Under the pieces are notes generated by a model, which was not told the origin of the DNA, did not search any database, and worked only from the letters and a program-made list of their open reading frames with translations. A stretch of 34,771 nt of DNA from Candidatus Thorarchaeota archaeon (GTDB lineage: Archaea; Asgardarchaeota; Thorarchaeia; Thorarchaeales; Thorarchaeaceae), in contig JBHLRQ010000016.1 of assembly GCA_048882385.1 (NCBI GenBank), positions 1-34,771 on the forward strand. Direction: 5' to 3'. The stretch's first letter is position 1, and each line of letters opens with the position of its first letter. The translations under genes and the position numbers were made by a program. Below, one piece after another: positions 16,539 to 20,317 of the stretch.

Positions 16539-18176
16539 TTGAGTCAACAAGTACCGGTGATTGTTCTAAGAGAAGACACCGAGAGAACGCGTGGTCGTGA
16601 TGCTCAAAGAAATAATATCATGGCCGCAATTGTGATTGCTGAAGCAGTCAAGTCCGCTTTAGGTCCTAAAGGCATGGACAAGATGTTGGTTGATAGCTTT
16701 GGTGATATCACAGTTAGTAATGATGGTGCAACAATCCTCAAGGAGATGGATGTTGCTCATCCAGCAGCTAAAATGGTGATTGAAGTCGCAAAAACCGTTG
16801 ACGCAGAAGTTGGAGATGGTACAACCACAGCAGCCATCCTAACTGGAGACCTTCTGAAGCAGGCAGAAACCCTTCTTGACCAGAAGATTCATCCAACTAC
16901 AATCATCAGCGGATACAGGAAAGCAACTGAAAAAGCACTCAAAGTCATTGAAGAGGTTGCAGAAACTGTAGATCCAGCCAGCGCAGATTACAAGAAGATC
17001 TTGATTGATGTTGCAAAGACATCCATGTCCAGCAAATTCGTTTCGGGATCACGTGACCCACTAGCAAGAATCGTCGTTGAAGCAGTACTTGCAATCGCTA
17101 AGGATTTACCCGAAGGCGAGGAACTAAGCGTTGACAGCATTCCACGTCAGAAACAAGTTGGAATGACTGTTGATAGTACTGAGCTTGTGAAGGGACTCGT
17201 TCTTGACAAAGAGGTCGTTCACGCAGGAATGCCAAAGAAGGTTACTGGAGCAAAGATTGCACTTCTTGAATGTGCACTGGAAGTAACCAAGACCGAGTTT
17301 GATGCCAAAATCTCAATAACCGATCCTTCTGCAATGCAGAGTTTTTTGGATGAAGAAGAACGTATGCTCAAGGATATGGTTGACAAGATTGTTGAAGCTG
17401 GAGCTAACGTGGTAATTGCACAGAAAGGCATTGATGATGTGGTTCAGCACTTCTTAGCAAAGAAAGGAATTCTCGCAGTCAGGAGAATAAAGAAGTCTGA
17501 TGTCGAGAGGATCCATAAAACCACCGGAGCTACAATCATTTCAAAGATTCAGAATCTCACAGCTGCAGATCTTGGTAAAGCAAAACTAGTCGAGCAGAGA
17601 GAGGTTGCAGATGACAAGATGCTCTTCATAGAAGGCACTCCAAAGTCAAGTGTGGTGACCTTGCTTGTCAGGGGTGGGACCGATCACATTGTTGATGAGG
17701 TCGACCGTGCCCTGAATGATGCTCTTAATGTTGTACGGGACGTTTTGATACAGCCCGCAGTCACCTACGGTGGTGGTGCACTTGCTGCGGAAATTTCAAA
17801 GCAGCTAAGAGACTATTCAGCAACACTCGAAGGTCGTGAGCAATACGCAGTCAATGCATTCGCAGATGCTATCGAATCCCTTCCAAACACACTCGCTGAG
17901 AATGCTGGCCTTGATCCCATCGATGTAATCGTCAACCTCAGAAAAGCACACACAGAGGGGAAGATTCATCACGGCATCGAAATCTCAAAAGGCAAGGTTG
18001 ATGACATGAAAAAGGCTCGAGTAGTCGAGTCAGCTCTTGTCAACAAGCAGATAGTCATGTCAGCAGCTGAAGCAGCTCAGATGATTCTCAAAATCGATGA
18101 TGTCATTAGTTCGAAAGGAGCCCCTGACATGGGTGGCGGCCCTGGTGGCGATGGCGACTTCGGTGATGACGAATAG
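16539..18176 (+). CDS. ths: Thermosome (group II chaperonin) subunit
   Basis: [32 protein letters not shown] and ILKIDDVI; TTG start with a GGAGG SD. Confidence 0.97.
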
Positions 18177-18212
18177 AAAGAGTCAAACGTAGAATGAAAT
18201 CAGGTGTAGCTC

Positions 18213-18890
18213 ATGTCAGAAGGCTCTGAACCAAATGAAAATGGGTCTGAAGAGGGTGAAGAAGAACCCATCACAACAATGGAGGAAAATGTTGCTCTAT
18301 TGACAAACATTCCTGGAGTAGGACCAAAGACCGCGGAGAAACTTGTCGCTGCAGGCTTTGACACCATTGAGAAAGTTGCTACTGGAGACAAGGAAGAACT
18401 TGCACAAGCAGTTGCAGGTCTCAGTGTTTCAAAAGCAGAGGCAACTATAGCTGAAGCTTTGGATGTTCTTGAGAAAGTGAAATCTGGAGCCCTAGATTTA
18501 AGCGGTAAGAAATCTAAGCGGAAAAAAGCACCAGAGCCGGAACCGGATAGGCACGAGCTAGAACCTCTAAAGGCAATGGATAAAGCTGAGGAGCGGAAGA
18601 AACTTGTCACGGGTTATGACAAAGAGAAAGCCGAGATGGGAATCCCTGTTGGTCCTAAATGGCTAACTAAGTTCGAGAAAGCTCGAATTATTGGTGCAAG
18701 AGCACTTCAAGTTTCGATGGGAGCTCCAGTTCTTATTGACATGAAGACTGCACCAAAGGGACGTTTCGGATTTGCTGAAGCAGAACTAAAGTCTGGTGCC
18801 CTCCCGATGACTGTCCGACGGACTCTTCCGACCGGAGAATCATTTGATATACCACTATCTATTCTATTAGTACACACTAGGTTGGACTAG
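18213..18890 (+). CDS. rpo6: RNA polymerase subunit Rpo6/K with an N-terminal acidic tail and tandem HhH domain
   Basis: C-terminal [24 protein letters not shown]...[19 protein letters not shown] is Rpo6/RPB6. N-terminal [12 protein letters not shown]...[12 protein letters not shown] is HhH-like. AGGTG SD before ATG 18213. Confidence 0.92.
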
Positions 18891-18915
18891 TTCCAACCTA
18901 TCTACTTCTTTTTTT
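18878..18915 (+). terminator. Hairpin plus U-tract ending the ths-rpo6 unit
   Basis: taggttgga-ctagt-tccaaccta forms a 9-bp stem spanning the stop codon, followed by tctacttcttttttt. Confidence 0.6.
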
Positions 18916-18997
18916 AATCTCCAAGTAATTGATGTGCAATCATACGACGCCTTAAAAGCATGTTATGCATGAGATAGAATTCCTAGTAGTGGTTGCA

Positions 18998-20317
18998 ATG
19001 CAGGTATTACTTCCTAGTGCAGAATTGGTTGTCAAGATTCTACTAGGATTTGTTGTTGGCGCGCTCATCGGACTCGAAAGACAGAAAAAAATGGAATCCG
19101 AAAGAGTTGCAGGAGTTAGATCATTTGGTCTTCATAGCCTTTTAGGAACATTGACTGCATATGCCTATGAGATTCTCAGTGAGCCCGTAATTCTTGTCTA
19201 TGCAATTGTGATTTCAGGAATCTTGGTTGCCACCCAGATATATTACAAAATGTTCCGCACAATGGGAAGAGGTCTGACCACTCCACTTGTTTTTGCAATC
19301 TCGTTTGTGCTAGGAGTTCTTGTTGGTCTTGATATTCCTGCAGAGGGGCAATATATTGGAACCCTCGGAGTCTTCGCAATGACCGTATCATTCGGGGTGT
19401 TTCTAGTCCTTAGTTTTAAAGAGGAGCTTGCTCATGCTGTTGAAGTAATAACAAGAGATGAAATGATTAGCGCAGTAGAGTTGGGTGTCATCATTTTGTT
19501 CTTGTGGCCAATAATTCCACAAACAGTTCAAATTGGAATAATCGAGCTTCCATTATTTCAGATCTACCTTCTAATTGTCATTCTACTAGGTGTAAGCTTT
19601 GCCAACTATCTGTTAGTCAAGAAATACAAGGATCGTGGAGTCTACTTCTTTGGTCTATTTGGAGGATTAGCGAATAGTGAAGCTGCTGTTTCAAGTGTAA
19701 CTGATTTCTATGTCAAATCGGAAAGAAAAGGTATAGGGCGAATCTCGGGATCTGTACTTCTAGCGAATGTTGCCATGGTCCTACGAAATGGATTCCTACT
19801 GCTGCTGATTGATTGGACTTTCTTTCTCTTTCGGTTGTACTTGATTCCAATTGCTATTCTGTTGGTAGCAAGTATGACGAAATTGTTACTGGAGAGTAGA
19901 AAGCAAGGAAACCTTGGTGAGCCGATGTTTGACACCCGGCTTGTTTCCCCATTTGAGTTCGGACCAGCCCTTAGATTTGGAGCGATATTCACTGGAGTCT
20001 ATCTCGTTCAGCTAATCTTTACTGCAACTTTTAGTGACATTGGTTTGGTTGTGGCAGCGTTGATTGGTGGAATCGTTTCAGCAGGTGCAGTTGTGGCTAG
20101 CGCAGCTACATTGTTCGTTACCGGAGAAGTTACTTTGTCTATTGCAGCCAATGCAGTTATTATTGCCACTACAATGTCTGTTCTCAATAAAATGATCTAT
20201 GTATATTTGGCAGATCGAGAAACAACTTTATTGAGGACAGTTGCCCGTGATTCTGTAATTGTCGGAAGTCTCATCCTATTCTATCTTCTACTGCTATCAC
20301 TCGGACTTTTAGTATAG
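18998..20317 (+). CDS. MgtC/SapB-family membrane protein with DUF4010
   Basis: GALIGLERQ...AGVRSFGL, GLFGGLANS and SPFEFGPALRFG; start at 18965 or 18998. Confidence 0.88.
   Translation: MQVLLPSAELVVKILLGFVVGALIGLERQKKMESERVAGVRSFGLHSLLGTLTAYAYEILSEPVILVYAIVISGILVATQIYYKMFRTMGRGLTTPLVFAISFVLGVLVGLDIPAEGQYIGTLGVFAMTVSFGVFLVLSFKEELAHAVEVITRDEMISAVELGVIILFLWPIIPQTVQIGIIELPLFQIYLLIVILLGVSFANYLLVKKYKDRGVYFFGLFGGLANSEAAVSSVTDFYVKSERKGIGRISGSVLLANVAMVLRNGFLLLLIDWTFFLFRLYLIPIAILLVASMTKLLLESRKQGNLGEPMFDTRLVSPFEFGPALRFGAIFTGVYLVQLIFTATFSDIGLVVAALIGGIVSAGAVVASAATLFVTGEVTLSIAANAVIIATTMSVLNKMIYVYLADRETTLLRTVARDSVIVGSLILFYLLLLSLGLLV

What the first reader, a model, noticed from the sequence alone, without database searches (positions are those of the whole stretch)
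18213..18890. RNA polymerase Rpo6 fused to a tandem helix-hairpin-helix module
Seen: 225 aa comprising an acidic tail (about residues 1-25), two HhH-like motifs ([12 protein letters not shown]; [13 protein letters not shown], about residues 28-88), a basic patch KKSKRKK, a charged linker, and a complete Rpo6 core (about residues 145-225). There is a good SD at the first ATG and no internal stop. Known: typical archaeal Rpo6 is well under 150 aa, and eukaryotic RPB6 has an acidic disordered N-tail. (HhH)2 modules bind DNA or protein in the RadA N-domain, bacterial alpha-CTD and NusA AR repeats. Inference: this RNAP may carry a tethered alpha-CTD-like DNA- or factor-binding domain near the stalk, an architecture I do not know as characterised.
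Basis: partly seen in the sequence, partly recalled or inferred. Interest (0 to 1): 0.75.

Follow-up and report, generated by a model that had tools for sequence, protein, structure and literature searches.

The report
RNA polymerase subunit Rpo6 carrying HhH domain
In one whole family of Asgard (Thor) archaea, the small RNA polymerase subunit Rpo6 is made as one protein with an extra helix-hairpin-helix domain of a DNA-binding type, probably a flexible tether from the polymerase to DNA or to a partner; a 2026 paper had already noticed it briefly.

Summary
ORF 18213-18890(+) encodes 225 aa: an acidic tail, one (HhH)2 domain (Pfam HHH_5, E 2.5e-12), an invariant KSKRKK patch with a conserved PEPEP linker, and a complete Rpo6 core (NCBIfam RpoK, E 6.5e-26). 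It is the only Rpo6 match in the genome.

The fusion is found in 80 of 86 genomes of the window's family. None of the other six shows an intact short Rpo6. The sister family keeps the same gene order but has a 153-aa Rpo6 without HhH. Listed Rpo6 frames from other Asgard families are 90-159 aa, with one outlier.

The HhH part is under purifying selection as strong as the core (dN/dS 0.06 against 0.07). The first ATG and a GGTG upstream are conserved; Met142 is not.

A second, opposite-order fusion (Rpo6 then HhH) exists in a Heimdall-like metagenomic lineage, and close relatives carry lysine-rich tails instead.

The nearest paralogues of the HhH module sit on Topo VI-A and ribosomal protein eL32 of the same genome.

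Most likely function (inferred, about 0.45): a non-specific DNA tether on RNA polymerase. The main rival is a factor-docking module.

A 2026 paper mentions the extension briefly and does not characterise it. This is a new variant of a known kind, of moderate interest.

The parts
16539..18176 (+). Thermosome (Cpn60/TCP-1) gene directly upstream. It lies 36 nt from the rpo6 start, so the two genes are probably one transcription unit.
   Evidence: Pfam Cpn60_TCP1 E 2.9e-176. The same order thermosome -> rpo6 -> MgtC/DUF4010 -> hisS is seen in sister-family locus L068.
18177..18212 (+). Conserved 36-nt spacer with the SD-like AGGTG at 18202-18206.
   Evidence: The spacer is nearly identical across orthologous loci. 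A GGTG/GAGG-type word at -16..-4 is present in 32 of 33 loci.
18213..18290 (+). Acidic, variable, probably disordered N-terminal tail (residues 1-26). The start MSEGSE is conserved.
   Evidence: pLDDT is below 50 for residues 1-21. dN/dS is 0.50. Mean net charge is -6.5. M1 is invariant in 61 sequences.
18291..18482 (+). (HhH)2 domain (residues 27-90): five helices and two hairpins (PGVGPKT and AGLSVSK).
   Evidence: HHH_5 E 2.5e-12. Helices 23-30, 38-47, 52-57, 60-66 and 72-90 in the model. Foldseek matches RadA 2f1h at rmsd 1.2 over 57 columns with 44% identity, and Topo V 8df9. dN/dS 0.061. Invariant residues I33 G35 V36 G37 P38 T40 K43 A64 G69 S71 K74 A75 I79.
18507..18527 (+). Invariant basic patch K99-K105 (KKSKRKK).
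   Evidence: S101 K102 R103 K104 K105 are invariant in 61 sequences. Net charge of residues 97-106 is +5 to +6 in all of them.
18528..18647 (+). Conserved acidic PEPEPD...RHEL...AEER..LVTGYD linker (residues 106-145).
   Evidence: E108 P109 P111 L116 E126 L131 T133 G134 G143 are invariant. dN/dS of residues 91-145 is 0.087. pLDDT is 50-64 with two short helices.
18648..18890 (+). Rpo6/RpoK core (residues 146-225) and stop codon.
   Evidence: NF002207 E 6.5e-26. Foldseek matches Rpb6/Rpo6 chains at rmsd 1.2-1.5 over 66-73 columns. pLDDT is 83-92. It is the only Rpo6 match in the 3.7-Mb genome.
18878..18915 (+). Hairpin plus a run of seven T (18909-18915) after the stop: terminator-like.
   Evidence: Consensus scan and the sequence itself. 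This is a pattern match only, not shown to act as a terminator.
18200..18610 (-). Antisense 136-aa open frame over the HhH-coding part, read as a shadow ORF and not part of the feature.
   Evidence: Listed. In 15 of 33 orthologues the antisense frame is open for fewer than 100 codons, whereas the + frame shows purifying selection.

Best explanation
**Shown.** The gene encodes the organism's only detected Rpo6 (RpoK) subunit of RNA polymerase, made as one polypeptide. It has an N-terminal acidic tail, a single (HhH)2 domain, an invariant KSKRKK patch and a conserved linker of about 40 residues in front of the Rpo6 core. This architecture is a shared trait of the whole family (named Thorarchaeota in source annotations). 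It is absent from the sister family and from the listed Rpo6 matches of the other Asgard families.

**Inferred.** The Rpo6 core anchors the protein in the polymerase as in solved archaeal and eukaryotic enzymes. The HhH domain and the basic patch then hang on a flexible arm of about 55 residues. They bind the sugar-phosphate backbone of duplex DNA without sequence preference, either downstream or promoter-flanking DNA. This would raise the enzyme's hold on the template (affinity, processivity or salt tolerance). It is the natural counterpart of Topo V's HhH repeats and of engineered polymerases carrying a tethered DNA-binding domain. In logic, but not in ancestry, it resembles the bacterial alpha-CTD.

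The confidence given is for the mechanism. The anatomy itself is near certain.
For: **Anatomy and translation**
- Domain matches.
- Only Rpo6 match in the genome.
- 80 of 86 family genomes carry the fused frame with no internal stop. 78 of them match from residue <=28 to >=223, and 2 are cut by contig ends.
- dN/dS is 0.061 for HhH, 0.087 for the linker and 0.068 for the core (32 unique sequences).
- M1 and the upstream GGTG are conserved. Met142 is M in only 20 of 32 sequences.

**Fold**
- Five-helix HhH in the model.
- It superposes on the RadA N-domain (rmsd 1.2, 44% identity) and on DNA-bound Topo V.

**Pointers to nucleic-acid binding**
- Both hairpins and the lysines next to them (K39, K43, K74) are invariant or nearly so.
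- An invariant +6 patch follows the domain.
- A profile of this HhH finds as its nearest paralogues in the same genome the two HhH modules at the N-terminus of Topo VI-A (52 and 42 bits). Next come the eL32 N-domain (39 bits), the tail of a membrane protein (34 bits) and RadA (31 bits).
- Convergence: a second lineage has Rpo6 followed by one or two HHH_5 domains at the C-terminus (6 clusters). Its close relatives carry an AKK-repeat tail instead.
- The HhH-plus-linker module is duplicated in tandem in P0016 and P0019.

**Literature (passages seen)**
- Topo V (HhH)2 domains touch only the phosphate backbone (PMC9489208).
- Tethering a non-specific DNA-binding domain to T7 RNA polymerase through a linker of 30-50 residues gave salt tolerance (PMC12630135).
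Against: - No binding was measured.
- The Rpo6 HhH domain is acidic in all 61 sequences (net -2 to -6, mean -4.1). The Topo VI-A, eL32 and membrane-protein modules are +2 to +9.
- The whole N-terminal arm is net negative, -5 to -18 in the three family loci listed. That fits protein docking or DNA mimicry as well as it fits DNA binding.
- The linker is far more conserved than a passive tether needs to be. This hints at a specific docking surface.
- HhH confidence in the model is only moderate (pLDDT 58-71).
- In the T7 study the single Topo V HhH chimera did not give the salt tolerance that Sso7d gave.
- Where the Rpo6 N-terminus lies relative to DNA in this enzyme was not modelled here.
Confidence: 0.45

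Rival explanations
1. Factor-docking platform. The HhH domain and the conserved acidic PEPEP/RHEL linker bind a protein, such as an initiation, elongation or termination factor, a repair factor or a chromatin protein. They recruit it to RNA polymerase, as the acidic N-terminal tail of eukaryotic RPB6 binds TFIIH p62.
For: - The HhH domain and the arm are net acidic.
- The linker motifs are invariant, like short docking motifs.
- The eukaryotic RPB6 N-terminal tail is a binding platform for the TFIIH p62 PH domain (PMC8754651, passages).
- PMC13257274 proposes extra Rpo6-Rpo5 contacts and factor binding from AlphaFold3 models (section 2.2.2 read; figures not seen).
Against: - No partner has been identified.
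- The nearest paralogous modules sit on DNA- and RNA-handling proteins with lysine-rich flanks.
- The convergent lineage alternates between C-terminal HhH and AKK-repeat tails, which are typical nucleic-acid binders and not docking motifs.
Confidence: 0.27
2. RNA-binding arm. The module contacts the nascent transcript, or another RNA, near the RNA exit or stalk side of the enzyme.
For: A related module sits on ribosomal protein eL32 of the same genome and on Haloarcula L32e chains in the PDB. Those proteins work in an RNA setting. The basic patch would bind any polyanion.
Against: HhH domains in the solved complexes matched here contact duplex DNA backbone (Topo V; RadA-type N-domain). Nothing in the sequence is RNA-specific. 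The best paralogues are on Topo VI-A, a DNA enzyme.
Confidence: 0.12
3. Intramolecular regulator or DNA mimic. The acidic tail and acidic HhH fold back on the basic patch or enter the DNA cleft of idle polymerase, gating template loading or helping assembly and solubility.
For: Charge pattern of -6.5 (tail), -4 (HhH), +6 (patch) and -5 (linker). The tail is disordered.
Against: This is pure inference. A folded HhH with both hairpins kept is not needed for charge mimicry. The tail is poorly conserved (dN/dS 0.50).
Confidence: 0.1
4. Annotation artefact. The true Rpo6 starts at an internal codon near residue 142, and the upstream part is untranslated or a separate product.
For: A Met at position 142 precedes the core in this window.
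Against: - Met142 is M in only 20 of 32 unique orthologues (L in 7, I in 5).
- The HhH region has dN/dS 0.061 in the + frame.
- No stop separates the parts in any of the 80 matches.
- The SD-like word lies before the first ATG in 32 of 33 loci.
- An additional minor internal start cannot be excluded.
Confidence: 0.03

Closest known systems
Canonical archaeal Rpo6/RpoK and eukaryotic Rpb6 (RPABC2)
   Same: The core (residues 146-225) matches the RpoK model above its cut-off. It superposes on Rpb6/Rpo6 chains at rmsd 1.2-1.5. It is the single copy in the genome. Like Rpb6, it has an acidic disordered N-terminal tail.
   Different: It carries a folded (HhH)2 domain, a basic patch and a conserved linker, about 145 extra residues in all. 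Listed Asgard Rpo6 frames outside the family are 90-159 aa, with one outlier. Of 80 archaeal species-representative loci, 76 give 80-138 aa.
Thorarchaeota Rpo6 as described in PMC13257274 (Int J Mol Sci 2026)
   Same: It is the same protein family. [quoted passage not shown]
   Different: The paper gives one example. In the sections read it offers no distribution, selection analysis, paralogues or convergent forms, and it names the fold loosely.
Bacterial RNA polymerase alpha C-terminal domain
   Same: It works alike in concept: a small helical HhH-like domain on a flexible linker attached to an assembly subunit of RNAP, able to reach DNA or factors.
   Different: It is not a member. There is no PF03118 match at E <= 1 for this protein. 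It sits on the omega/Rpo6 homologue and not on the alpha/Rpo3 homologue, and at the N-terminus. Its nearest sequence relatives are the archaeal RadA, Topo V, Topo VI-A and eL32 HhH modules.
Topoisomerase V (HhH)2 repeats and engineered polymerase-DNA-binding-domain chimeras
   Same: The same domain type (Topo V chains at E 3.8e-7; Foldseek 8df9) is used as a non-specific DNA tether. Tethered domains on T7 RNAP worked best with linkers of 30-50 residues (PMC12630135).
   Different: Here there is one domain and not 12. It is acidic and not basic. It is natural and sits on a multisubunit RNAP. The effect is untested.
RadA/Rad51 N-terminal domain
   Same: This is the best structural match for the HhH part (2f1h, rmsd 1.2, 44% identity). 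RadA models match residues 30-91 (E 1.1e-9). The charge is similarly acidic (own RadA N-domain -3).
   Different: There is no recombinase core. The genome's own RadA is only the fifth-best paralogue by profile score (31 bits).
HhH-extended ribosomal protein eL32 (Haloarcula L32e type)
   Same: It has the same module order: an N-terminal HHH_5, then a lysine-rich linker, then a small conserved core. It is present in this genome and in PDB L32e chains.
   Different: The host machine differs (ribosome). The eL32 module is basic (+4, linker +25), while the Rpo6 module is acidic.

Membership tests
Rpo6/RpoK/Rpb6 RNA polymerase subunit | Match to the curated family model above its cut-off | tested here: met
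   NCBIfam NF002207 scores 90.4 bits against a cut-off of 71, and NF002208 scores 70.3 against 57. Pfam PF01192 alone scores 21.8, under its cut-off of 26.
Rpo6/RpoK/Rpb6 RNA polymerase subunit | Rpb6 fold | tested here: met
   The model core has pLDDT 83-92. Foldseek matches Rpb6/Rpo6 chains at rmsd 1.2-1.5 with probability 1.00.
Rpo6/RpoK/Rpb6 RNA polymerase subunit | Serves as the genome's Rpo6, with no separate short copy | tested here: met
   There is one match in the 95%-complete genome. No family genome shows an intact short copy. The one extra short match (G327) is cut by a contig end.
Rpo6/RpoK/Rpb6 RNA polymerase subunit | Assembles into RNA polymerase between the two halves of the largest subunit | not testable with these tools
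   Inferred from homology only.
(HhH)2 domain (Pfam HHH_5) | Model match above the cut-off | tested here: met
   47.5 bits against a cut-off of 27, residues 29-81.
(HhH)2 domain (Pfam HHH_5) | Two hairpins with the Gly-hydrophobic-Gly/Ser signature in a five-helix bundle | tested here: met
   G35-V36-G37 and G69-L70-S71 are invariant or nearly so. Five helices in the model. RadA and Topo V structural matches. Confidence is moderate (pLDDT 58-71).
(HhH)2 domain (Pfam HHH_5) | Non-sequence-specific binding of the DNA backbone | not testable with these tools
   The domain is net acidic, so binding must be measured.
Bacterial alpha-CTD (PF03118) | Sequence membership | tested here: not met
   No PF03118 match at E <= 1. 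Only the functional analogy stands.
RadA/Rad51 recombinase | RecA-type ATPase core after the HhH N-domain | tested here: not met
   RadA models match only residues 30-91 and score far below their cut-offs (38 bits against 361). The rest of the protein is Rpo6.
Eukaryote-type Rpb6 acidic N-terminal tail | Disordered acidic segment before the core | tested here: inconclusive
   An acidic, low-pLDDT tail is present. No sequence homology to eukaryotic tails was shown. The sister family has a 71-residue acidic extension without HhH.

The most novel reading that the evidence does not exclude
One lineage-specific HhH-plus-charged-linker cassette has been grafted onto three core machines of the same cell: RNA polymerase (Rpo6), the ribosome (eL32) and Topo VI (subunit A). 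A Heimdall-like lineage independently fused HhH to the other end of Rpo6.

The boldest reading not excluded is that these cassettes form a shared anchoring system. It would hold the transcription, translation and topology machines on the same chromatin or DNA scaffold, or couple them to each other. The Rpo6 copy would be an archaeal, independently evolved equivalent of the bacterial alpha-CTD that contacts both DNA and factors.
Probability: 0.1. Interest if true: 0.75.

Novelty: new variant of a known kind. Interest (0 to 1): 0.5.

Why it matters
Core RNA polymerase subunits rarely gain folded accessory domains.

Here a DNA-binding-type domain is built into the polymerase of a whole Asgard family, the archaeal group closest to eukaryotes. 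A second lineage reached a similar solution from the other end of the same subunit. That points to a recurring need to tether the enzyme through Rpo6, the subunit whose tail in eukaryotes recruits TFIIH.

It gives a simple, testable case of how polymerases acquire promoter-independent DNA contacts or factor contacts. It also offers a natural template for engineering tethered polymerases.

The organisms are known here only from metagenome-assembled genomes, so the tests must be recombinant.

Tried and rejected
**Steps that gave no answer**
- Complex prediction of the Rpo6 arm (residues 1-148, alignment A1) with one of the genome's two Rpo5 paralogues (alignment A3). Verdict 'no answer': score 0.30 against a mark of 0.32, controls not run. 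I do not use it either way.
- RNA evidence: no RNA holder was listed for window 17600-19200.
- Lineage of the opposite-order fusion: a single-protein scan of genome contigs found no relative. The alignment scan found only plain Rpo6 genes, the nearest in MAGs titled Heimdallarchaeota at up to 70% identity. The lineage call therefore rests on similarity only.
- Literature: the search 'L32e' + 'helix-hairpin-helix' found 0 papers. Two searches brought up only PMC13257274 as bearing on this fusion. Its figures 7C and 8B are not held. They may contain more on distribution or on the modelled contacts.

**Readings rejected**
- Antisense ORF 18200..18610: a shadow ORF.
- Assembly or gene-calling artefact: 80 genomes carry the fusion.
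- Internal start as the main product.
- Alpha-CTD membership.
- A short second Rpo6 in G327: the match is cut by a contig end.

**Donor of the module.** Profile scores point to the Topo VI-A and eL32 modules and not to RadA. A tree of 60-residue domains was not attempted, as it would be too weak.

**Recalled and not seen in any call**
- DNA binding by the human Rad51 N-domain.
- The original Topo V HhH-polymerase chimeras.
- The placement of Rpb6 in the 'shelf' module near the clamp base and stalk.

Full report
**1. Observation**

Window 18213..18890 (+) is an uninterrupted ATG-started ORF of 225 aa.
- Pfam finds HHH_5 at residues 29-81 (E 2.5e-12, over its cut-off), plus a weak RNA_pol_Rpb6 match that is under its cut-off.
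- NCBIfam RpoK models match residues 137-224 (NF002207, E 6.5e-26, over its cut-off).
- Against PDB sequences, residues 141-210 match Sulfolobus Rpo6 (E 6e-13) and many eukaryotic RPABC2 chains. Residues 29-98 match Topo V, Pyrococcus and Methanococcus RadA N-domains, and Haloarcula L32e.

**2. The gene is real and translated from the first ATG**

- The genome holding the window (3.7 Mb, 256 contigs, 95% complete) has one Rpo6 match, and it is this gene.
- A search with the whole protein over the 87 genomes of the order gave fused matches without stops in 80 of the 86 genomes of the window's family.
  - 78 of them cover residues <=28 to >=223.
  - G378 and G381 are cut by contig ends.
- Of the other six family genomes, G323 has only a contig-end fragment of the core. 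G340, G355, G363, G365 and G380 (62-92% complete) show no Rpo6 at all.
- A second short match in G327 also abuts a contig end.
- On 32 unique orthologous coding sequences, median pairwise dN/dS is 0.061 for the HhH part, 0.087 for the linker, 0.068 for the core and 0.50 for the acidic tail. These sequences come mostly from the window's genus and a few neighbouring genera.
- Met1 is invariant in 61 proteins. Met142 is M in only 20 of 32 sequences.
- The 36-nt spacer after the thermosome stop, with AGGTG at 18202-18206, is almost unchanged among loci. An SD-like word is present in 32 of 33.
- The antisense 136-aa frame is a shadow ORF. It is broken to fewer than 100 codons in 15 of 33 orthologues.

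**3. Distribution**

I scanned 400 genomes of the phylum with the RpoK model. 373 have a match, and the 150 best matches are listed.
- The 43 listed rows from the window's family have open frames of 220-251 aa.
- The single sister-family genome has 159 aa.
- The 106 rows from other families have 90-159 aa, except one of 536 aa (G052).
- 226 matches were not listed, so these are counts within the listing.

The sister-family locus keeps the gene order thermosome, rpo6, MgtC/DUF4010 protein, hisS. Its Rpo6 is 153 aa, with an acidic extension and no HhH. The HhH therefore entered an existing N-terminal extension at the base of the family.

Source names for the fused proteins are 'Candidatus Thorarchaeota archaeon' RpoK.

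In a library of 1.84 billion cluster representatives, only three clusters (P0122-P0124) are full-length fused forms of this type.

**4. Structure**

AlphaFold2 on a 61-sequence alignment gave mean pLDDT 70.5.
- The tail (1-21) and residues 98-105 are below 50.
- The HhH region is at 58-71, with helices at 23-30, 38-47, 52-57, 60-66 and 72-90.
- The core is at 83-92.

Foldseek matched the core to Rpb6/Rpo6 chains at rmsd 1.2-1.5. It matched the HhH part to RadA 2f1h (rmsd 1.2 over 57 columns, 44% identity) and to DNA-bound Topo V 8df9.

**5. Conservation pattern**

Invariant residues cluster in four places:
- the two hairpins (I33 G35 V36 G37 P38 T40 K43; G69 S71 K74 A75 I79);
- the patch S101-K105;
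- the motif E108 P109 P111 ... L116;
- the segment just before the core (E126, L131, T133, G134).

Net charges over the 61 sequences are: tail -6.5, HhH -4.1 (range -6 to -2), patch +6, linker -4.8, core +4.8.

**6. Relatives of the module**

A profile of the Rpo6 HhH searched against all open frames of the genome gave this ranking:
- two modules in the N-terminal, lysine-rich extension of Topo VI subunit A (52 and 42 bits);
- the N-domain of ribosomal protein eL32 (39 bits);
- the C-terminal tail of a multi-pass membrane protein (34 bits);
- RadA (31 bits);
- one further frame (23 bits).

The Topo VI-A frame is cut by a contig end here. It is seen whole in L072 and L073 and in P0125 and P0129, which have 4-7 HHH_5 domains.

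Those modules are basic (+2 to +9), while the Rpo6 one is acidic, like RadA's (-3).

Two metagenomic Rpo6 proteins (P0016, P0019) carry the whole HhH-plus-linker cassette twice.

**7. Convergence**

The representative search also found Rpo6 proteins with the opposite order: the core first, then one or two HHH_5 domains (P0134, P0147, P0272-P0275).
- One lies on a 9-kb contig among ordinary cellular genes.
- Their closest relatives (78% identity in the core) end instead in AKK repeats (P0276, P0277).
- The nearest named genomes are MAGs titled Heimdallarchaeota, up to 70% identical in the core, with plain Rpo6.

Two independent HhH fusions and a lysine-repeat alternative on the same small subunit are the strongest comparative argument that the appendage binds a polyanion, most simply DNA.

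**8. Mechanism**

*Shown:* one polypeptide, conserved, selected, and the sole Rpo6.

*Inferred:* the core docks as in solved polymerases. The arm is flexible, judging from the low pLDDT at 98-105 and the charged linker.

The best reading (0.45) is a non-specific DNA tether formed by the hairpins and the KSKRKK patch.
- This fits Topo V, whose (HhH)2 domains contact only the phosphate backbone (PMC9489208, passages).
- It also fits engineered T7 RNA polymerase, where a tethered DNA-binding domain on a 30-50-residue linker gave salt tolerance (PMC12630135, passages).

The acidity of the domain and the unusually conserved linker keep a factor-docking reading alive (0.27). Its precedent is the eukaryotic RPB6 tail that binds TFIIH p62 (PMC8754651, passages).

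RNA binding (0.12), an intramolecular or DNA-mimic role (0.10) and an internal-start artefact (0.03) follow.

**9. Prior knowledge and novelty**

PMC13257274 (abstract, sections 2.2.2 and 3, and legends read) states that Thorarchaeota Rpo6 has a long N-terminal sequence with a fold it cites to the HhH literature. It suggests that this may stimulate transcription. It gives one accession and AlphaFold3 models.

The following are not in the parts of that paper that I read:
- the family-wide distribution and the selection data;
- the conserved linker motifs;
- the paralogous modules on Topo VI-A and eL32;
- the cassette duplication;
- the opposite-order fusion.

Searches found nothing else on these points.

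It is a new variant of a known subunit, already sighted in print and functionally open.

**10. Limits**

- No RNA or proteome data could be used.
- The complex prediction gave no verdict.
- The lineage of the opposite-order fusion rests on similarity alone.
- The position of the arm on the enzyme comes from recalled structural knowledge, not from a computation made here.

Noticed in passing
G000:C4, locus L066 1486-2313 (+): Ribosomal protein eL32 of the same genome is 275 aa: an N-terminal HHH_5 domain, a very lysine-rich linker (+25), then the L32e core. It lies in the S8-L6-eL32-L19e operon. Other family genomes have the same arrangement (L069), and one metagenomic form has four HHH_5 domains (P0127).
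   Followed up: partly
G000:C233 (L063, cut by the contig end); whole in L072 1873.. and L073 2143..; P0125, P0129: Topo VI subunit A in this family carries an N-terminal extension of lysine-rich stretches and 2 HHH_5 domains, and up to 7 in P0125. These are the closest paralogues of the Rpo6 HhH, and the arrangement is reminiscent of Topo V.
   Followed up: partly
G000:C10, locus L064 1483-3057 (-): A multi-pass, transporter-like membrane protein ends in a cytoplasmic HhH domain and a KKSVKKKK tail. It could tie DNA to the membrane.
   Followed up: no
G000:C161, locus L155 385-1029 (-) and 1026-1589 (-): There are two tandem Rpo5 (RpoH) paralogues of about 187 and 214 aa. Each has an N-terminal Mrr_cat-like (restriction-endonuclease fold) domain before Rpb5_C, a eukaryote-like two-domain Rpb5. 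The long form matched in 72 of the 87 genomes of the order, including the sister family, and the tandem pair is seen in several genera.
   Followed up: partly
P0251 (553 aa); G052:C157:4665-4916 (open frame 536 aa): In another Asgard family, an Rpo6 core sits at the end of a long open frame that begins with lactate racemase (LarA) domains. This is either a real fusion or a lost stop or gene-call artefact.
   Followed up: no
P0276, P0277; locus L188: Heimdall-like Rpo6 proteins end in long AKK/PAKK repeats, a histone-H1-like basic tail. Their close relatives have C-terminal HhH domains in that position.
   Followed up: partly
window 18177-18212: The 36-nt thermosome-rpo6 spacer (AGAAAGAGTCAAACGTAGAA...) is almost invariant across genera, well beyond the SD-like word. 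It may hold a processing or regulatory signal.
   Followed up: no
P0016 (320 aa), P0019 (325 aa): Metagenomic relatives carry the whole HhH + basic patch + PEPEP cassette twice in tandem before the Rpo6 core.
   Followed up: partly
loci L007-L010, L014, L018 (other Asgard families): Several non-Thor Asgard Rpo6 open frames show lysine-rich N-terminal stretches (for example KKRVAKKPAVKK). The start codons were not verified.
   Followed up: no
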